Positions 18,864 through 25,383 of a stretch of 43,102 bases of DNA are shown piece after piece. Under the pieces are notes generated by a model, which did not search any database, had not been told where the DNA came from, and was given only the letters and a program-made list of their open reading frames with translations. Origin of the DNA: Escherichia phage AV104; the sequence record OR352935.1; one strand, written 5' to 3'. The translations under genes and the position numbers were made by a program. Numbering within the stretch: position 1 is the stretch's first letter; every line of letters starts with the position of its first letter.

Positions 18864-19225
18864 ATATTAATTCTTATACTGGGTTACCGTACGATTTTCG
18901 CCGTCGTAATTGCTGGCACCACGTGCGTAACGTTCGTACCGACGCTGGCCTTTTTACGCCAGAGTTTAACGTCGCTTCACCAACACAGATTAACGACGCC
19001 TTCGAAGAAGGCCATAAAGACACTAAAGGCCTCGTACGCGTAGAAACTCCGCAAAACTTCGATGCCGTTCTGATGGCAACACGGCACAGAAACCGTGTAA
19101 TCTGGCACGCTGGAGTATACTATGACGGTATGGTAAGCCATTGCGAGCTGGCGAGTCGCCAGGTACGGTTAGACCGACTGGAAGACTTGCGCGAAACTTA
19201 TGCGGAGATAGAATTTTGGCGCTGA
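18860..19225 (+). CDS. tail assembly protein (gpK-like, NlpC/P60-type Cys-His)
   Basis: 121 aa; conserved Cys/His (RRNCWHHVRNV ... VIWHAGVYYDGMVSHCE); ATGA coupling. Confidence 0.45.
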   Translation: MNINSYTGLPYDFRRRNCWHHVRNVRTDAGLFTPEFNVASPTQINDAFEEGHKDTKGLVRVETPQNFDAVLMATRHRNRVIWHAGVYYDGMVSHCELASRQVRLDRLEDLRETYAEIEFWR

Positions 19226-21768
19226 TATTACATTACACCCGTAACGAAGACGGTACTTTTGACCGCAAACGGTATAACGTACCTCCGATGGAATACGTCG
19301 TTGCTAACATCCCAGACGGGGTACCTGTGCGTATTTACCGCGGCGAGATTGGTGATGATACAGACGTAACGGAAAACTTCGAAGCGCTGAAAGAAGATGA
19401 CGTTTTCCATATCATAGAGGGCGCTGGCGGCGGTGGTGGTTTTCTTGGTAAACTCCTGGACCCTTTGGGTGTGCTTAAATTTGTTACCAAGTTGATTTCT
19501 CCGTCGCAGAAAACGCCTAAAACGAGTTTAGCGAACCAGCAGGCGGAGTCTCCCAACAACAGCCTGACTGACCGAAACAATAAACCGCGGCCGTATGAAC
19601 GGTCGTATGATATTTGCGGCAGGGTCCAGACTATCCCTAATGACCTCATGACTACGTATAAGGTCTTCAATGACGCAGGTGTGGTAGTTGAATACGGCTA
19701 CTATGACGCCGGTCGCGGGTATCTTGATATTAAAGCCGAAGACATCACAGACGGCGATACTAAAGTACAGGAGATTACCGGAACTTCTGTAGCGGTATAC
19801 GCCCCTTTTACGTCCCCTAACAATACAAATACGCCTCAGCTTCTGGTAGGGGATCCTATTAATCAAAATCTATACATAACTATTGCCTCGAACGAGGTAG
19901 ATGGGGCCGTTCTTAAAGCGCAGAACGACATCAGGGTTAATCCCAGTGATACCGGTGAGATTTCATTGCAGGGGGCAACTGGTGTCGTCCGCGATAACAC
20001 TGGCGACTCTGCTTTCTCTGAGATTTTATCAGTTGGGGACATAGCTGTTTTTAACCTTATTCTGGTAAAAGACGTGGCTAACGTCAGTGGTAGCTATACT
20101 GTTACATACGTAGATGACTTTGAGGTAAGAGTAGCCGCCGGAGGGATGTTGTCAGAATGGCAAAAATTGCCATCGGGATTCACTCCTTTAACGCAAGGTA
20201 CCGAAGCATGGATTTCACCGTCGAACACTTACGATAAGTCGTTAACGGACTGGACTACTTTAAACCGCCTGGAAGTTGAACGCGTAGTAGCCAACATTGC
20301 GGCTGCTAATGGTATGTATAAAGACAACGGCAGTAAATTGCGCACGTCGGTAACTGTGGAGCTTCAGTATCAACTCCTTGATGAAACTGGCGTGCCGTAC
20401 GGTGATGTTTACTCAAAACAGGCCGTTATATCAGGTCGTTCTGCGGATTACACAGGTGTTACTATTTACGCCGACTTGCCCATGCGGTCGAAAGTTAGGG
20501 TACGTGCCCGCCGCGTCACTGACCTGGACCTCAGTTTTGAGGGAACCGTGGTAGACGAGGTTTCCTACATCAATCTTTATGGGCAGGTACGCGACACTAC
20601 ACCACATTACGGCAACCGTACTACCGTGCACTCCGCACGTAAGCAGACGCCGCGGGCAGCGGAGATTAAGCAACCACAGTTACGTATGGTCGCCACAGAG
20701 ATGGTGTACAAATACCTCGGCAACGGCACATTCGACACGGTTATGACGCCGAATACTCAGGCGATTCAGTCCTTAATCCGTCTCGCCCGCGACCCGGTAG
20801 TAGGTAATCTCAACCTAACAACATCCAATATGGACAAGTTGTTAGCTACTCAAACTGAGATAGAAAACTATTTCGGTAGCGCAGAGGCAGGCCAATTCTG
20901 CTACACTTTTGACGATTATAAAATGACCATGCAGGATATCATCAGCACAATAGCTGATGCTATTTTCTGCACTCCATATCGTAAAGGGCAGGACATATTG
21001 CTGGACTTCGAGCGCCCGCGGATTGGCCCGGAAATGGTGTTCACACATCGCAGCAAGACTACAGCTACGGAGAAGTGGACCCGAACGTTCAACGACGCTC
21101 AGGTATACGATAGTCTTAAGTTCTCCTACATCGACCCCGATACCAACGTCAAAGAGACAATCAGCATCCCAGCCGAAGGTGGTGTCAATACTGAAACGTA
21201 TGACTCCAAAGGTATACGTAATTATCGTCAGGCGTACTGGGCGGCGTACCGTCGGTACCAGAAGAACCTGTTGAAGAAAGTCACGGTGTCCTTTACGGCG
21301 ACAGAAGAAGGAGTTTTTGTGCTGCCGGGTCGCGCAATAAGCGTCGTTAAGGGTTCACGCGTAGCGCCTCAAGACGGCTATGTTGTTGCCGTTAATGGTC
21401 TTACTCTGACGTTATCACAACCGGTTACTTTTACCCCCGGAGACGACCACTCATTGATTCTTAAGAAGCGTGACGGTGGTGTTCAGAGCGTTGCAGTGGT
21501 TCCTGGAAGTCATGACCGTGAAGTGATTATGTTATCCGCGCCGCAGGAGGCAATTTACACAGGGAATAGCGCACTAAAAACTGAGTTTTCATTCGGCAAC
21601 GAAGCAAGGCATAATGCTCAGATGATTCTTGTTTCTACAGTTGACCCCGGAGATGACAGAACAGTTAAGATTACCGGGATTAACTATGAAGCAGATTTCT
21701 ATAAATACGACGGCGTCGCGCCTTTCGGCAGCGGTTTCTCCGGCGGATTCAGCAACGGTTTTAGTTAA
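19216..21768 (+). CDS. central tail fiber / host specificity protein (gpJ-like) with N-terminal gpI-like segment
   Basis: long ORF; N-terminal region with Gly run (GAGGGGGFLGKLLDP) resembles tail assembly protein I, continuous with about 750 aa J-like body; start uncertain (probable TTG near 19216). Confidence 0.55.
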   Translation: MALILHYTRNEDGTFDRKRYNVPPMEYVVANIPDGVPVRIYRGEIGDDTDVTENFEALKEDDVFHIIEGAGGGGGFLGKLLDPLGVLKFVTKLISPSQKTPKTSLANQQAESPNNSLTDRNNKPRPYERSYDICGRVQTIPNDLMTTYKVFNDAGVVVEYGYYDAGRGYLDIKAEDITDGDTKVQEITGTSVAVYAPFTSPNNTNTPQLLVGDPINQNLYITIASNEVDGAVLKAQNDIRVNPSDTGEISLQGATGVVRDNTGDSAFSEILSVGDIAVFNLILVKDVANVSGSYTVTYVDDFEVRVAAGGMLSEWQKLPSGFTPLTQGTEAWISPSNTYDKSLTDWTTLNRLEVERVVANIAAANGMYKDNGSKLRTSVTVELQYQLLDETGVPYGDVYSKQAVISGRSADYTGVTIYADLPMRSKVRVRARRVTDLDLSFEGTVVDEVSYINLYGQVRDTTPHYGNRTTVHSARKQTPRAAEIKQPQLRMVATEMVYKYLGNGTFDTVMTPNTQAIQSLIRLARDPVVGNLNLTTSNMDKLLATQTEIENYFGSAEAGQFCYTFDDYKMTMQDIISTIADAIFCTPYRKGQDILLDFERPRIGPEMVFTHRSKTTATEKWTRTFNDAQVYDSLKFSYIDPDTNVKETISIPAEGGVNTETYDSKGIRNYRQAYWAAYRRYQKNLLKKVTVSFTATEEGVFVLPGRAISVVKGSRVAPQDGYVVAVNGLTLTLSQPVTFTPGDDHSLILKKRDGGVQSVAVVPGSHDREVIMLSAPQEAIYTGNSALKTEFSFGNEARHNAQMILVSTVDPGDDRTVKITGINYEADFYKYDGVAPFGSGFSGGFSNGFS

Positions 21769-21780
21769 AGAGGACTCTAT

Positions 21781-23253
21781 ATGTCAAGCGGATGCGGTGA
21801 CGTTTTAAGCCTGGCGGATTTACAAACCGCCAAGAAACACCAGATTTTCGAAGCAGAGGTTATCACGGGCAAATCCGGCGGCGTTGCTGGCGGCGCTGAT
21901 ATTGATTACGCGACCAACCAGGTAACCGGGCAGACGCAGAAGACGCTCCCTGCCGTGTTGCGTGACGTGGGCTTTTCTCCGGTGTCGTGGGATTTCTCCA
22001 CAGGCGGCACGTTAACTGTTGACGACCGTGACAAAGTTGTCTATGACCCCGTAAGTAAAACGTGGTATTCGTACGCGGGTACGTTGCCTGTTGTGGTTCC
22101 TGCATCCTTTAACCCGGTTGGTAACGCTAACTGGAAGCCGCAGACTGACCCTGACTTACGTTCGGATTTAGAAACAATGTGGGCAGACGGCAGTTTCCCG
22201 GAAGCCGTTAGATATAAATACGGACTGCCAACTGTCGTTGACGGCGCGGTATACAGAACTGTTCAGGATAAGTTGGATGATTTTGTAAACGTTCGAGATT
22301 TCGGGGCTGTTGGTGATGGCTCTACCGACGACTCCGTAGCTTTCCAGAAGGCCATAAATACTGGACGTGCCGTAATGGTCCCTGCGGGGATTTACCGTAT
22401 ACAGAACGTAAGTGCCCCGAAGGTAGTGCTGTTTGCCGAAGTTCCTGGTTCAGTAGAAATACAGCCCGTGAACCCGGCTAGCACGGACCCTAGCGCGTGC
22501 CTTTACATCCGTGGTACATCCGAATCCGCCCTTTCGGGTCAAAACTATATCAGCGGAATTACATTCTCTTCCCCATTCGCAGCAGAAGGGGAAACCCCAT
22601 TCCTTTTGTTTTGTGAGTTCATTGAATACAGTACTTTCGAAAACCTTCTCTTCTACCGGGGGACATTCCGCCTATACAACCAACGGTATGTAAACTTTTA
22701 TAACTCGCGATTGTACAACGCTCTGCTGTACGTAGACCAGAACAAATCGGGGATTGATGCAGCGGTAGGGTTGCATATCGACAGGCTGTTCGCGGCATAT
22801 ACTAGCAAAGTAGAAATTAGAAACTGCACAGACACTCGCATCACCAATACCTATATTACTAACCCTGATTTAGCTTTATTGGTCGAGTTCGATACTGACT
22901 TCTTCAACTCCGGGGGTAGTAAGCCTTTTTGTGGTGTTTTAAAAACATCTAATATCATTGTTGAAGGGAGGTCTGTATTACGCTGCCTGGCTTTGAGTAC
23001 GATTACAGGATCCTGGTTTGGTGCTTTTTCTGGCACTGGTGTTAAGTTTGAAGATTGCTACGGATTAACATTCACAGGTAGTACCAGCCATTACTGTAAC
23101 GGTGGTTCTGCTATGGAACTAAACCGTGTCTATGATAGTTCTTTCGTCTCATCATCTTTCACCAATGCTTCTAATGATGGGGTAACAATGGATAACTGTA
23201 CTAACATTCAGTTTGTTGGCTGCAATGTCGGAACATTTGAACTTTACGAATAG
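21781..23253 (+). CDS. tailspike / tail fiber with pectate-lyase-like beta-helix
   Basis: 490 aa; VNVRDFGAVGDGSTDDSVAFQKAINTG matches the signature of right-handed beta-helix depolymerases. Confidence 0.7.
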   Translation: MSSGCGDVLSLADLQTAKKHQIFEAEVITGKSGGVAGGADIDYATNQVTGQTQKTLPAVLRDVGFSPVSWDFSTGGTLTVDDRDKVVYDPVSKTWYSYAGTLPVVVPASFNPVGNANWKPQTDPDLRSDLETMWADGSFPEAVRYKYGLPTVVDGAVYRTVQDKLDDFVNVRDFGAVGDGSTDDSVAFQKAINTGRAVMVPAGIYRIQNVSAPKVVLFAEVPGSVEIQPVNPASTDPSACLYIRGTSESALSGQNYISGITFSSPFAAEGETPFLLFCEFIEYSTFENLLFYRGTFRLYNQRYVNFYNSRLYNALLYVDQNKSGIDAAVGLHIDRLFAAYTSKVEIRNCTDTRITNTYITNPDLALLVEFDTDFFNSGGSKPFCGVLKTSNIIVEGRSVLRCLALSTITGSWFGAFSGTGVKFEDCYGLTFTGSTSHYCNGGSAMELNRVYDSSFVSSSFTNASNDGVTMDNCTNIQFVGCNVGTFELYE

Positions 23254-23263
23254 GACTAAGTAT

Positions 23264-23581
23264 ATGGCTACTATCATTCAAACCAACGGTATCAACATTG
23301 GCTCTAACTGCACGGGTGTTACTATCGTTTCCTGCAGTTTTAAAGGGAATAGTAACGGCGCTGTCGTAGGGTCGGGATGGAATAACGGGGACGGGGTAAA
23401 AGTAAGGACGCTGGCATGTATCGGTGTTGGAGATACGCCAGCGATTTCAAGGGGTACTACAGCGCAACGCCCTTCAGCACCTGTAAGTGGTCAGCAGTAT
23501 TACGATGCGTCCCTGGGGATTCCTATCTGGTGGAACTCAGTTAGTGGCACATGGAAAAACGCAGCAGGTGCTGACGTATAA
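23264..23581 (+). CDS. tail fiber C-terminal module (separate ORF or split continuation of tailspike)
   Basis: 105 aa in a different frame 11 nt after the tailspike stop; beta-helix-like repeats (NCTGVTIVSCSF) and a C-terminal GQQYYDASLGIPIWWN motif reminiscent of tail fiber C-termini. Confidence 0.45.
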   Translation: MATIIQTNGINIGSNCTGVTIVSCSFKGNSNGAVVGSGWNNGDGVKVRTLACIGVGDTPAISRGTTAQRPSAPVSGQQYYDASLGIPIWWNSVSGTWKNAAGADV

Positions 23582-23586
23582 AACTA

Positions 23587-23610
23587 AGGCCCCGAAAGGG
23601 GCCTTTTCTC
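23587..23610. terminator. bidirectional rho-independent terminator
   Basis: AAGGCCCC-GAAA-GGGGCCTT followed by TTCTC; ends both the structural operon and the reverse-strand replication operon. Confidence 0.65.
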
Positions 23611-23747
23611 TACTCGTCTGATAACTTCTCCAGAATAAACGCCAGTTGCGCATTGGCGGCGTCTCTCTGTTGCCGTAGTCTTAGGACTTCCTCTTCGAGT
23701 TCCTTGATACGTTTCTGTAAAGCTGGGATTGGGGCTACGATGTTCAT
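23610..23747 (-). CDS. small coiled-coil protein (45 aa, below cutoff)
   Basis: ATG overlaps upstream stop (ATGA); sequence MNIVAPIPALQKRIKELEEEVLRLRQQRDAANAQL. Confidence 0.3.
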   Translation of the reverse strand: MNIVAPIPALQKRIKELEEEVLRLRQQRDAANAQLAFILEKLSDE

Positions 23748-23929
23748 TTCTTACCATCACTTTTCTTGAAGCTACGTTTTATATCTGGCAGCGTGTAGCA
23801 TCTCGACTTCTCATATTTCCCGTCAGAGCTTACCAAAACAAAGCTGTTGCCGTCGTTTGATATGTACTCAATGGTGAAAGTATTGAACGAATGTACGCTG
23901 TATATTTCATCGCCAACATTAAGTTTCAT
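23744..23929 (-). CDS. hypothetical protein
   Basis: 61 aa ORF coupled to helicase gene. Confidence 0.45.
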   Translation of the reverse strand: MKLNVGDEIYSVHSFNTFTIEYISNDGNSFVLVSSDGKYEKSRCYTLPDIKRSFKKSDGKK

Positions 23930-25383
23930 TTCTTACCTCGTCTCTTCATGTAATTAAGCAACTCTTCCTGTACTGATTTCTTCTCGTCTGTACGCGCGGA
24001 AACAACCTCATCCAGCGTGTCTTTAGCGACGATGTGGTAGAGGAACACCGGGCGCTCGTGCCCCGCCTGCTTCTGTCGCACCGGGCCTATGCGCTCAACA
24101 ACCTGCAAATAGTGCTCAAGGTTCCAGCCTTGCGAAATAAACGCCAGATGATGGCCGCCGTCCTGTAAATTGAGGCCGTGTCCGGCTGACGCGGGATGAA
24201 CGCATAAAATCTCGATTTCACCACGGTTCCACGCTTCCATCTGCTTATTACCCTTAGCACCTTTGGCGAACGCCTGCGCCTGCGGAAAACGTTTCAGGAT
24301 GCGCTCCAGTTCATGCTTGAACTGATAGGCCACCAGTAACGGCGCACCCTGCAACTCTTCCACAATCGACTCAAGCGCGTCCAGTTTCGTGTCGTGCACT
24401 TTCTCCCAGTCTTTGGTTGCTTCCCCGTCTGGCCCCGATACATACACGGCACCGGATGCAATCTGGAGGCACTTCGATGTCTTCGCTGCCGCGTTAGCGG
24501 CCTCAACTTCCCCGCTCTCGAGTTCCGCAAATAACTTTTCCTCCATATCGATGTACGCCTGACGCGCCTTCTTCGGCAGGTCGATTTCAACCGGAACAAT
24601 AATCGGCGCTTCACACCCGAACCACTCAGCGGCGTCAATCGTGAGGCTTATGTCTTTCATCTTCTGGTGAATTTCATTATCCGCGCCCGGGCGTGCGTGG
24701 TACTCTCGCGCCATAGCCGATTTGCCTTTCTGTACCGAGTTAAACCAGCGGTCGGTGAACGCTGTGTATGAAGAACCGAGGCGCTCACCCGCATCTATAA
24801 ACCAGTTCTGCCCCCACAAGTCTTTGAGGCCGTTTGGTGAGGGTGTGCCTGTAAGGTTAATGAAACGCTTAACCTTTCCGAATGCCACCTTACTGAGCGC
24901 CTTTGCTCGCTTGCTTCCACCAGAACGGCTACGGAATGATTTCAGCTTCGTGCTTTCATCTGCGACGATAACGGTAAAAGGCCAGTCGTCTTTGCCGTAG
25001 TAGTCAATCAGCCACTCGATAACTTCGTAGTTCGTACACACTACGTTAGCATCGGACTCAAGCGCCGCGATGCGGCGCTTCTCCGAACCCGTTGCATCGA
25101 CGACACGCAGACACGGGAATCGCCATTTCTCTTGTTCTGCGGGCCATGTGCCGGACGCAACGCGCAGCGGGGCGAGGATTAACACGCGGTCGTCATCATT
25201 AAGCCGACCATTACGTAACAGTCGGTTTAACGCCCACAGTACGCTGCCGGTCTTCCCGGCGCCCATGCTTGCCCATATGTTACAGCGATTGTGCTGCAAC
25301 ATGAACGAGGTCATGAGCTTCTGGTACTCGCGCCTTTGAAACTTAGACATGATTGGCCTCATGAACTGCTTTTGCGAAACCAC
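23926..25383 (-). CDS. SF2 (SNF2/DEAD-like) ATP-dependent helicase
   Basis: 485 aa; Walker A SMGAGKTG, DExx box VIVADESTKL, C-terminal helicase motifs. Confidence 0.8.
   Translation of the reverse strand: MVSQKQFMRPIMSKFQRREYQKLMTSFMLQHNRCNIWASMGAGKTGSVLWALNRLLRNGRLNDDDRVLILAPLRVASGTWPAEQEKWRFPCLRVVDATGSEKRRIAALESDANVVCTNYEVIEWLIDYYGKDDWPFTVIVADESTKLKSFRSRSGGSKRAKALSKVAFGKVKRFINLTGTPSPNGLKDLWGQNWFIDAGERLGSSYTAFTDRWFNSVQKGKSAMAREYHARPGADNEIHQKMKDISLTIDAAEWFGCEAPIIVPVEIDLPKKARQAYIDMEEKLFAELESGEVEAANAAAKTSKCLQIASGAVYVSGPDGEATKDWEKVHDTKLDALESIVEELQGAPLLVAYQFKHELERILKRFPQAQAFAKGAKGNKQMEAWNRGEIEILCVHPASAGHGLNLQDGGHHLAFISQGWNLEHYLQVVERIGPVRQKQAGHERPVFLYHIVAKDTLDEVVSARTDEKKSVQEELLNYMKRRGKK

What the first reader, a model, noticed from the sequence alone, without database searches (positions are those of the whole stretch)
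21781..23581. Tailspike split into a 490-aa beta-helix ORF and a 105-aa C-terminal ORF in another frame
The pectate-lyase-like tailspike ends at 23253; 11 nt later a second ORF in a different frame (23264-23581) continues with beta-helix-like repeats and a tail fiber-type C-terminal motif. The second frame is already open from 23213, overlapping the first by 41 nt. This could be two interacting proteins (depolymerase plus a distal tip or intramolecular-chaperone-like module), a programmed frameshift, or a sequencing or assembly indel.
Basis: partly seen in the sequence, partly recalled or inferred. Interest (0 to 1): 0.45.

Follow-up and report, generated by a model that had tools for sequence, protein, structure and literature searches.

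The report
Naturally split two-gene phage tailspike
The phage's host-recognition spike is encoded as two separate genes, a 490-aa enzyme body and a 105-aa end-cap; this arrangement is conserved across many unrelated phages, so it is an old gene split and not a frameshift or a sequencing error.

Summary
ORF1 (21781-23253, 490 aa) and ORF2 (23264-23581, 105 aa, +1 frame) lie 10 nt apart. Joined end to end, they align without a gap at the junction to the single-chain tailspike TSP3 of phage CBA120 (PDB 5W6F/6NW9, residues 193-627).

The split is not an indel or a programmed frameshift. The same break occurs in every close relative whose contig I fetched: ORF1 ends ...[FI]E[LIV]YE-stop and ORF2 starts M[AS][ST][IL]xQ. 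It is also present in relatives only 36-40% identical. These sit in Kagunavirus-like, P22-like, T7-like and epsilon15-like backbones. The spacer is 5-13 nt, all three stop codons occur, and ORF2 lies in frame 0, +1 or +2, in most cases behind a Shine-Dalgarno-like motif.

ORF2 is under purifying selection (dN/dS 0.07-0.24). The split sequences form one clade nested among fused relatives, which points to a single old fission.

The break maps to the middle of TSP3's solvent loop 522-533. ORF2 therefore supplies the last ~2 beta-helix turns, the linker and the D4 beta-prism cap. An (ORF1)3(ORF2)3 spike is the most likely product, but that is inferred, not shown.

The window is the viable isolate Escherichia phage AV104. 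This is a new variant of a known kind, of moderate interest.

The parts
21781..22290 (+). ORF1 residues 1-170: Kagunavirus-type N-terminal anchor (virion attachment) and neck
   Evidence: 89-97% nucleotide identity to the tailspike 5' ends of phages Henuyfy11N and BUCT789; identity collapses after about 22290. Matches Pfam Tail_spike_N and PHROG tailspike families at residues 1-160.
22291..23250 (+). ORF1 residues 171-490: right-handed beta-helix enzyme body, ending in the conserved C-terminal motif F-E-L-Y-E
   Evidence: Pfam Pect-lyase_RHGA_epim and Beta_helix. AF2 model with pLDDT mostly above 90 in this region. Best Foldseek match is CBA120 TSP3, E 1e-19. D351 and E395 align with the TSP3 catalytic residues D383 and D426. 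Low G+C (40-43%) from about 22600.
23251..23263 (+). Junction: ORF1 stop TAG (23251-23253), Shine-Dalgarno-like AGGA (23252-23255) overlapping the stop, and the 10-nt spacer (23254-23263)
   Evidence: Read directly from the sequence. Homologues have TGAGG, TAAGGG or TAAAGGAG at the same place, with spacers of 8-13 nt; L016 has only a weak GAG and a 5-nt spacer.
23264..23581 (+). ORF2, 105 aa plus stop: small distal subunit of the tailspike (GenBank WPK33106.1, annotated 'hypothetical protein')
   Evidence: Conserved as a 99-105 aa ORF directly after every split-clade ORF1 examined. dN/dS 0.07-0.24. Aligns to TSP3 residues 528-627.
23285..23413 (+). ORF2 residues 8-50: equivalent of the last ~2 turns of the beta-helix (TSP3 534-574)
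   Evidence: Alignment mapping. This is the most constrained part of ORF2, dN/dS 0.00-0.14. AF2 gives pLDDT below 50 over most of residues 1-58 when ORF2 is folded alone.
23414..23488 (+). ORF2 residues 51-75: equivalent of the D3-D4 linker (TSP3 575-597)
   Evidence: Alignment mapping. TSP3 domain limits come from PMC6517402.
23489..23578 (+). ORF2 residues 76-105: D4 module, a three-stranded antiparallel sheet that forms a trimeric beta-prism II cap in TSP3
   Evidence: AF2 pLDDT 86-93 with three strands. Foldseek superposes 45 residues on 5W6F at rmsd 0.9 A and 76% identity. P87, W90 and N91 are invariant; TSP3's prism core is lined with Pro, Trp and Asn residues, and I infer that P87, W89/W90 and N91 are those positions.
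23586..23605 (.). G+C-rich hairpin (AAGGCCCC-TTTC-GGGGCCTT) just after ORF2, between the convergent tail operon and the minus-strand replication genes; likely a terminator for both directions
   Evidence: The terminator scan called it on the minus strand. On the plus strand the sequence shows the hairpin followed by TTTTCTCT. No promoter- or terminator-like site lies at the junction itself (23207-23263) between the two ORFs.

Best explanation
This is a genuine, evolutionarily old gene fission of a CBA120-TSP3-type tailspike. ORF1 (490 aa) carries the Kagunavirus anchor and about 11.5 turns of the enzymatic beta-helix. ORF2 (105 aa) is translated separately from its own ATG, behind an AGGA that overlaps ORF1's stop codon, so the two are probably translationally coupled on one late transcript. 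ORF2 supplies the last ~2 helix turns, the linker and the D4 module. The chain break falls in the middle of a long solvent-exposed loop (TSP3 522-533) beside the inter-subunit active-site cleft, a place where a break should be tolerated. The most likely product is a hetero-hexameric spike, (ORF1)3(ORF2)3. In it, the ORF2 strands stack onto the open end of each ORF1 helix. The three D4 sheets form the beta-prism II cap, which in TSP3 straddles two neighbouring helices, and so clamp the trimer. Shown here: the two-gene layout, its conservation, purifying selection on ORF2, collinearity with TSP3 and the position of the break. Inferred: coupled translation, stable association of the two products, and the presence of ORF2 in the virion.
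For: 1) The same break point occurs in all fetched loci of the ten closest homologues (66-91% identity). It also occurs in the Enterobacter clade (the 36-40%-identical homologues P0019, P0020, P0023 and P0028 all end ...E[LI]YE) and in metagenomic relatives.
2) Frame offsets of 0, +1 and +2 all occur, spacers run from 5 to 13 nt, all three stop codons are used, and most spacers carry an SD-like motif.
3) ORF2 dN/dS is 0.07-0.24, and 0.00-0.14 for its helix-rung half.
4) ORF1+ORF2 concatenated align to TSP3 193-627 with no junction gap, E 3.4e-35. E490 and M1 correspond to TSP3 G527 and G528, inside loop 522-533, which the TSP3 paper describes as a long solvent-facing loop next to the active site.
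5) Folded alone, ORF2 is confident only in its D4 part and is below pLDDT 50 over most of residues 1-58. Both ORFs find TSP3 as their best structural match.
6) The 18 split sequences are monophyletic (84% bootstrap) inside fused relatives.
7) The cassette sits at the position of the only tailspike gene in P22-like prophages. The Enterobacter version occurs in more than 900 contigs. The window is phage AV104, a plaque-forming isolate.
8) In TSP3 the D4 sheet plane intersects two helices and its core is lined with Pro, Trp and Asn. P87, W90 and N91 are invariant in ORF2 and its relatives.
Against: There is no direct evidence that the two polypeptides associate or that ORF2 is in the virion. ORF2 diverges faster than the ORF1 helix between the Kagunavirus and P22-like versions (69% versus ~91% protein identity; nucleotide identity drops at the junction), so partners are not strictly co-inherited. 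Only two of TSP3's three catalytic acidic positions are acidic in ORF1 in my alignment, so the enzymatic mechanism may differ. One E. coli prophage carries ORF2 cut by foreign, apparently IS-like DNA, which shows that loss of ORF2 can persist at least in a resident prophage.
Confidence: 0.75

Rival explanations
1. ORF2 is a trans-acting assembly chaperone. It templates trimerisation of ORF1 through its D4 prism and helix rungs, then is released and is absent from the mature spike. This would be a stand-alone version of the C-terminal auto-chaperone domains of other tailspikes.
For: ORF2 sits where tail-fibre assembly genes usually sit, directly downstream of the receptor-binding gene. The abstract of PMC3357383 states that the trimeric C-terminal domains of the K1F and phi29 spikes have auto-chaperone activity, and its title ascribes a related function to the P22 C-terminal region. 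ORF2 is less tightly co-inherited with ORF1 than expected for an obligate structural partner.
Against: The homologous residues (TSP3 528-627) are an ordered, integral part of the mature crystal structure, including two turns of the helix core. Without ORF2, ORF1 would end in an uncapped beta-helix. ORF2 matches no Peptidase_S74 or Tfa-type family in Pfam, and no such family in PHROGs. The strongest constraint is on the helix-rung half. A PHROG family built on the D4 module is annotated 'virion structural protein'; that is an annotation only.
Confidence: 0.15
2. ORF1 alone is the working spike, and ORF2 is an independent accessory protein (for example a small lectin-like module) or a remnant being lost.
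For: All the candidate catalytic residues lie in ORF1. An E. coli prophage has ORF2 disrupted by foreign, apparently IS-like DNA. Many short stand-alone D4-module ORFs exist elsewhere.
Against: ORF2 has been retained next to ORF1 through divergence down to 36% identity and across at least four phage backbones, with dN/dS 0.07-0.24. Its N-terminal half is beta-helix sequence that AF2 does not fold confidently alone. The start of ORF2 and the end of ORF1 are the most conserved features of the junction.
Confidence: 0.06
3. A programmed +1 ribosomal frameshift (for example at CTT-T, 23240-23243) or stop-codon readthrough produces a fused 600-aa spike.
For: Frame 2 is open for about 69 nt upstream of the ORF1 stop, and a CTT T string lies in the overlap. 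The total length of 1801 nt is one base more than the 1800-nt single-ORF spike of Henuyfy11N.
Against: The frame relation is not conserved (0, +1, +2). Spacer length and sequence vary. L008 has ORF2 in the same frame behind two stop codons. L007 and L016 would need a different shift. The start Met and, in most cases, an SD-like motif are conserved instead. The 1801-versus-1800 match is a coincidence, because the central ~1,150 nt of the two genes are not homologous at the DNA level (26-57% identity with many indels).
Confidence: 0.02
4. A sequencing or assembly indel in this record breaks an otherwise intact gene.
For: A one-base excess over the 1800-nt gene of the closest phages.
Against: An identical junction sequence occurs in independent assemblies L011 (ENA) and L012 (Logan). 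The same 10-nt layout occurs in Salmonella and E. coli genome assemblies L003-L006, and the same split occurs in more than 900 Enterobacter contigs. The ORF1 and ORF2 clusters contain 15 and 12 members, many of them from contigs of ~43-44 kb.
Confidence: 0.01

Closest known systems
CBA120 tailspike protein 3 (TSP3, ORF212; PDB 5W6F, 6NW9)
   Same: Collinear homology from the start of the beta-helix to the last residue (about 30% identity overall; the last 22 residues are identical). It has the same domain order: helix D3, linker, D4 three-stranded sheet. It is the best sequence and fold match for both ORFs.
   Different: TSP3 is one 627-aa chain, whereas here the chain is broken at the equivalent of G527/G528. 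The N-terminal anchor differs (Kagunavirus type versus Kuttervirus D1-D2). Only two of its three catalytic acidic positions are acidic here. Substrate specificity is unknown.
Fused sister group: Enterobacter phage phiKDA1 gp61 and proteins P0011-P0018 (460-666 aa)
   Same: 37-43% identity over both ORFs. They are the nearest single-chain relatives, and some carry the same Kagunavirus anchor (P0012, P0016, P0018).
   Different: They run continuously through the break point (…GEGGIANDGPTQKRGINI…), with no stop, spacer or start.
Receptor-binding proteins split at the N-terminal side (adapter plus enzymatic protein, as described for K1-5, SP6, K1E, KP34 and CLB_P1)
   Same: A receptor-binding organ built from two gene products rather than one (described in PMC10408124).
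   Different: Those splits separate the anchor from the whole enzymatic domain at a domain boundary. Here the anchor stays fused, and the break lies inside the beta-helix, near its distal end.
C-terminal auto-chaperone or intramolecular chaperone domains (K1F endosialidase, phi29 gp12, P22 tailspike C-terminal region)
   Same: A trimeric C-terminal module that is important for registering and locking the three chains (PMC3357383 abstract). According to the TSP3 paper, P22's D4 also has beta-prism II architecture.
   Different: Those modules are made as part of the same chain and are either kept or cut off by autoproteolysis. ORF2 is translated separately and matches no Peptidase_S74 family.
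Distal tip or adhesin proteins and retained Tfa proteins (T2/S16 gp38; Mu and P2 fibre assembly proteins). Recalled from my own knowledge, not tested here.
   Same: A small protein encoded just downstream that ends up at the distal end of a trimeric fibre.
   Different: There is no sequence or fold relationship. Those proteins add a new domain, whereas ORF2 is the missing piece of the spike's own fold.

Membership tests
TSP3-type beta-helix tailspike (CBA120 ORF212 family) | Collinear sequence homology across helix D3, linker and D4 | tested here: met
   phmmer of ORF1(161-490)+ORF2 against the PDB: 5W6F/6NW9 residues 193-627, E 3.4e-35, one stretch, no gap at the junction.
TSP3-type beta-helix tailspike (CBA120 ORF212 family) | Right-handed parallel beta-helix fold of the enzyme body | tested here: met
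   AF2 model of ORF1 with helix pLDDT mostly above 90. Foldseek top hits are 6NW9 and 5W6F, E 1e-19. Pfam Beta_helix and Pect-lyase_RHGA_epim.
TSP3-type beta-helix tailspike (CBA120 ORF212 family) | C-terminal D4 three-stranded sheet with a Pro/Trp/Asn core (beta-prism II in the trimer) | tested here: met
   AF2 gives strands at 78-81, 86-91 and 96-98 with pLDDT about 90. Superposition on 5W6F has rmsd 0.9 A. P87, W90 and N91 are invariant; the core composition is from PMC6517402. Trimer formation itself was not tested.
TSP3-type beta-helix tailspike (CBA120 ORF212 family) | Single polypeptide per subunit | tested here: not met
   Stop, spacer and new start at the equivalent of G527/G528, conserved in 18 homologues.
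TSP3-type beta-helix tailspike (CBA120 ORF212 family) | Catalytic acidic residues E362, D383 and D426 | tested here: inconclusive
   D383 aligns to D351 and D426 to E395, both kept as acidic residues. E362 aligns to G330. The alignment is at only about 30% identity.
TSP3-type beta-helix tailspike (CBA120 ORF212 family) | Trimeric assembly and glycosidase activity on an O-antigen | not testable with these tools
   Needs a multimer prediction or biochemistry.
Programmed ribosomal frameshift or readthrough gene | Fixed frame relation and a conserved slippery or recoding site among homologues | tested here: not met
   Frame offsets 0, +1 and +2; spacers of 5-13 nt; three different stop codons; two in-frame stops in L008.
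Tail-fibre assembly or intramolecular chaperone proteins (Tfa, Peptidase_S74) | Match to the family profiles | tested here: not met
   ORF2 has no Pfam hit other than a sub-threshold DUF6287 (E 0.061). Its PHROG hits are phrog_20787 ('virion structural protein') and the C-terminus of the tailspike family phrog_7173.
Tail-fibre assembly or intramolecular chaperone proteins (Tfa, Peptidase_S74) | Gene directly downstream of the receptor-binding protein gene | tested here: met
   10-nt spacer in the window; 5-13 nt in homologues.
Adapter-plus-enzyme split receptor-binding proteins (K1-5/SP6/KP34 type) | The anchor is encoded separately from the enzymatic domain | tested here: not met
   The anchor (residues 1-170) and the helix are fused in ORF1.

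The most novel reading that the evidence does not exclude
A whole clade of tailspikes works as obligate two-subunit (A3B3) machines. A separately translated ~100-aa cap completes the beta-helix by strand complementation and clamps the trimer. The break also sits beside the active-site cleft and at a recombination junction. The free, conserved termini (…E-L-Y-E-COOH and Met-Ala-Thr-Ile…) could therefore shape substrate access, and the split could let phages swap enzyme bodies while keeping a compatible cap. Stand-alone D4-module proteins in other phages (phrog_20787) would then be the visible part of a wider trans-capping strategy for fibres and spikes.
Probability: 0.3. Interest if true: 0.6.

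Novelty: new variant of a known kind. Interest (0 to 1): 0.45.

Why it matters
**Annotation.** ORF2 is labelled 'hypothetical protein' in GenBank records of AV104, Salmonella, E. fergusonii and Enterobacter. Gene callers skip it in some assemblies with the identical sequence. It should be annotated as the distal subunit of the tailspike.

**Practice.** Anyone expressing this depolymerase recombinantly, or predicting host range from 'the' tailspike gene, would probably need both ORFs. ORF1 alone lacks the end of its helix and its trimer cap.

**Biology.** This is a natural, long-lived example of a beta-helix split in a surface loop. It has been moved as a two-gene cassette between siphovirus and podovirus backbones. 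That gives a ready-made permissive site and a test system for how C-terminal modules drive tailspike trimerisation, and for engineering chimeric spikes.

Tried and rejected
1) **One-base insertion.** ORF1-to-ORF2 spans 1801 nt and the spike gene of Henuyfy11N/BUCT789 spans 1800 nt, which suggested a single inserted base. I rejected this: only the first ~520 nt and the last ~130 nt are homologous, and the middle is 26-57% identical with many indels.

2) **DNA searches for the central part.** blastn in distant mode against 50,697 phage records found nothing. megablast against complete E. coli genomes found nothing.

3) **Protein searches against the phage records.** tblastn found only the fused phiKDA1 spike as a relative of the helix. 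No split-clade member was found in that collection, and AV104 did not appear among the hits either.

4) **Word-indexed protein search with ORF2.** It returned only four proteins, so I used the exhaustive representative search instead.

6) **Literature.** Searches for split tailspikes found only N-terminal adapter splits, a split T5-type distal tail protein, and an unrelated Pantoea phage ORF split. The AV104 and Henuyfy11N papers do not comment on the two-ORF spike.

7) **Slippery site.** A CTT-T string in the overlap was considered as a +1 site and rejected on the comparative evidence.

8) **Tree bootstrap.** The first bootstrap run timed out. I repeated it with a faster script.
Full report
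**1. The observation**

The ORF list and the sequence confirm the description.
- ORF1 runs from 21781 to 23253 (ATG start, 490 aa, stop TAG).
- ORF2 starts at ATG 23264 and ends at 23581 (105 aa), one frame ahead. The spacer between them is 10 nt.
- Frame 2 is open from about 23185 and contains a TTG at 23213.
- ORF1 matches Pfam Pect-lyase_RHGA_epim (E 1.6e-10), Beta_helix and Tail_spike_N. ORF2 has no significant Pfam hit.

**2. What the window is**

An exact-sequence look-up shows that both proteins come from Escherichia phage AV104. ORF1 is WPK33105.1, annotated 'tailspike'. ORF2 is WPK33106.1, annotated 'hypothetical protein'. The contig is 43,102 bp.

AV104 is a Kagunavirus isolated from wastewater on E. 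coli ESBL128 (PMC10844046). The phage is therefore viable with this arrangement.

The closest phages in the annotated collection are Henuyfy11N and BUCT789. Each has one 599-aa tailspike gene. That gene shares only the first ~170 codons and the last ~45 codons with the window. The central helix is unrelated at the DNA level. The 1801-versus-1800 nt length match is therefore a coincidence and not evidence of a one-base insertion.

**3. The split is conserved**

I searched 5.8 billion proteins with the helix of ORF1 joined to ORF2. The ten closest homologues (66-91% identity, 478-580 aa) all stopped at 75% of the query, which is where ORF1 stops. More distant proteins (27-40% identity, 464-687 aa) covered 100% of the query as a single chain.

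I fetched contigs for seven of the ten closest homologues. In every case a small ORF follows ORF1 directly:

| Loci | Backbone | ORF1 + ORF2 (aa) |
|---|---|---|
| L003/L004, L009/L010 | Salmonella P22-like prophages, at the canonical tailspike position | 478 or 480 + 105 |
| L008 | T7-like phage | 580 + 105 |
| L007 | epsilon15-like contig | 561 + 103 |
| L011, L012 | Kagunavirus-like genomes | 492 or 490 + 105 |
| L005/L006 | E. coli P22-like prophage | 480 + ORF2 cut at codon 47 |

Relatives that are only 36-40% identical have the same arrangement:
- The Enterobacter hormaechei prophage protein P0028 (564 aa, 941 contigs) is followed by a 99-aa ORF.
- The metagenomic protein P0019 (470 aa) is followed by a 102-aa ORF.

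The junctions share these features:
- ORF1 always ends [FI]-E-[LIV]-Y-E.
- ORF2 always begins M-[AS]-[ST]-[IL]-x-Q.
- The spacer is 5, 8, 10, 12 or 13 nt.
- The stop is TAG, TGA or TAA.
- ORF2 lies in frame +1, 0 or +2 relative to ORF1.
- In L008 it is in the same frame, behind two stop codons.
- An SD-like motif lies on or just after the stop in most cases (AGGA, GAGG, AAGGG, AAGGAG). The 5-nt spacer of L016 has only a weak GAG.

This pattern excludes a sequencing error and a conserved recoding event. It is the signature of two separately initiated, probably coupled genes. No promoter- or terminator-like site lies at the junction itself. A G+C-rich hairpin follows ORF2 at 23586-23605.

**4. 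ORF2 is a working gene**

- Pairwise dN/dS for ORF2 is 0.07-0.24, similar to 0.07-0.12 for the ORF1 helix.
- The first 50 codons are the most constrained, at 0.00-0.14.
- A neighbour-joining tree of the helix region puts all 18 split sequences in one clade (84% bootstrap). The clade is nested between the fused sister group (phiKDA1 gp61, P0011-P0018) and the fused TSP3 group.
- The simplest history is a single old fission that has been kept ever since.

**5. Where the break falls in the structure**

ORF1(161-490) plus ORF2 align to CBA120 TSP3 (PDB 5W6F/6NW9) residues 193-627 in one stretch, with no gap at the junction (E 3.4e-35).

The TSP3 paper (PMC6517402) gives these features:
- Beta-helix D3 spans residues 169-574.
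- A 23-residue linker follows.
- D4 spans residues 598-627. It is a three-stranded sheet, and three copies form a beta-prism II.
- The D4 sheet plane intersects two helices, and the prism core is lined with Pro, Trp and Asn residues.
- Loops 402-415 and 522-533 are long and solvent-facing. They touch across subunits next to the active-site cleft.

In my alignment:
- ORF1 E490 corresponds to TSP3 G527, and ORF2 M1 to G528. The break is in the middle of loop 522-533.
- ORF2 residues 8-50 correspond to the last ~2 helix turns.
- ORF2 residues 51-75 correspond to the linker.
- ORF2 residues 76-105 correspond to D4.

Supporting structure predictions:
- P87, W90 and N91 of ORF2 are invariant across relatives.
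- AF2 folds ORF1 into a confident helix. TSP3 is its best Foldseek match (E 1e-19).
- ORF2 alone is confident only from residue ~60 onward (pLDDT 86-93) and is below 50 over most of residues 1-58.
- ORF2's D4 part superposes on 5W6F at 0.9 A.

ORF1 D351 and E395 align with catalytic D383 and D426 of TSP3. E362 aligns with a glycine.

**6. Most likely mechanism**

This section is inferred, not shown.
- Both ORFs are made from one late transcript.
- ORF2 initiation is coupled to ORF1 termination.
- The ORF2 strands add the missing turns onto each ORF1 helix.
- The three D4 sheets form the distal prism that ties neighbouring chains together, giving an (ORF1)3(ORF2)3 spike.

The main rival is that ORF2 acts only during assembly and is then released. 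That idea fits the auto-chaperone literature. It fits less well with the fact that the homologous residues are an integral part of mature TSP3. Association and virion presence remain untested.

**7. Mosaicism**

Sliding-window identity shows patchwork relationships. Against the P22-like version (L003), the window reaches 90-98% in parts of the helix. Identity falls to 57-77% from the junction onward. The junction therefore also behaves as a recombination boundary. G+C drops to 40-43% across 22600-23350, which is consistent with an imported cassette.

**8. How widespread the cap module is**

The exhaustive representative search with ORF2 gave 334 hits at E <= 0.001.
- Full-length stand-alone matches are few (103 aa and 99 aa representatives).
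- The ~45-residue D4 module is common. It occurs at the C-termini of long tail proteins, repeated several times inside very large proteins, and in many 56-120 aa ORFs.
- PHROGs has a 67-position family for it, phrog_20787, labelled 'virion structural protein'.
- One such 74-aa ORF overlaps the end of a larger 'virion structural protein' gene.

**9. Comparison with what is known, and novelty**

The family is known: these are TSP3-type tailspikes. Splits between the anchor and the enzyme body are also known (K1-5/SP6/KP34 type).

I found no description of a conserved break inside the beta-helix with a separately translated distal cap. No split-clade member was found in the 50,697 annotated phage records.

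I rate it a new variant of a known kind. It has moderate interest and clear practical consequences for annotation and for expressing these enzymes.

Noticed in passing
L005:4454-4751 and L006:4454-4592 (E. coli P22-like prophage): ORF2 is cut after codon 46. Homology to the Salmonella version ends abruptly at ...AAAGCA|TGAAC..., and the following sequence encodes MSGKRYPEEFKIEAVKQVVDRGYSV..., which looks like the start of an IS3-family transposase gene (from memory, not tested). Both contigs end inside it.
   Followed up: partly
L003:4806-5963, L007:5009-6232, L009:4816-5973 (minus strand): In the P22-like and epsilon15-like loci an Acyl_transf_3 (PF01757) gene lies convergent, immediately downstream of ORF2. 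It is plausibly an O-antigen acetyltransferase for serotype conversion, placed next to the O-antigen-specific spike. The window has no such gene.
   Followed up: no
Proteins (e.g. P0132, 2209 aa, 8 stretches; P0192, 1635 aa, 9 stretches; P0142, 74 aa); L019:561-785: The ~45-residue D4 motif (RP..P..G..YYD..LG.PIWWN...W) is a widespread module. It is terminal in many tail proteins, tandemly repeated in very large proteins, and present in many 56-120 aa stand-alone ORFs (phrog_20787). In L019 a 74-aa example overlaps the stop of an upstream 'virion structural protein' gene by 4 nt.
   Followed up: partly
L004, L010, L014 versus L003, L009, L015: Gene calling is inconsistent. The ORF2 homologue is called in one assembly and omitted in another with the identical sequence. 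Where it has a name, it is 'hypothetical protein'.
   Followed up: yes
window 22600-23350: G+C falls to 40-43%, against 50-56% in the flanks. The dip coincides with the imported helix body and the start of ORF2.
   Followed up: partly
window 19141-21768: The upstream tail-tip (J-like) gene is listed mechanically as 875 aa from a TTG at 19141. Relatives annotate 826-aa and 850-aa versions of the same gene, so the true start in the window is probably further downstream.
   Followed up: no
window 23586-23605 and 23610-25383 (minus strand): A single hairpin separates the end of the tail operon from convergent minus-strand genes: two small ORFs of 45 and 61 aa, then an SNF2-type helicase at 23926-25383. 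It probably terminates transcription from both directions.
   Followed up: no
PDB 9D83/9D84 chain D ('Gp49', 410 aa), residues 370-408: A second solved protein ends in the same D4-like motif (SGTTAQRP...HFDTTLGKPIWFNG..W, E 3e-5). I did not look up what it is.
   Followed up: no
whole window: The window equals the 43,102-bp genome of Escherichia phage AV104 (OR352935). No hit in the 'phages' collection covered more than 45% of the 2.1-kb query around the spike, so AV104 seems not to be in that collection.
   Followed up: yes
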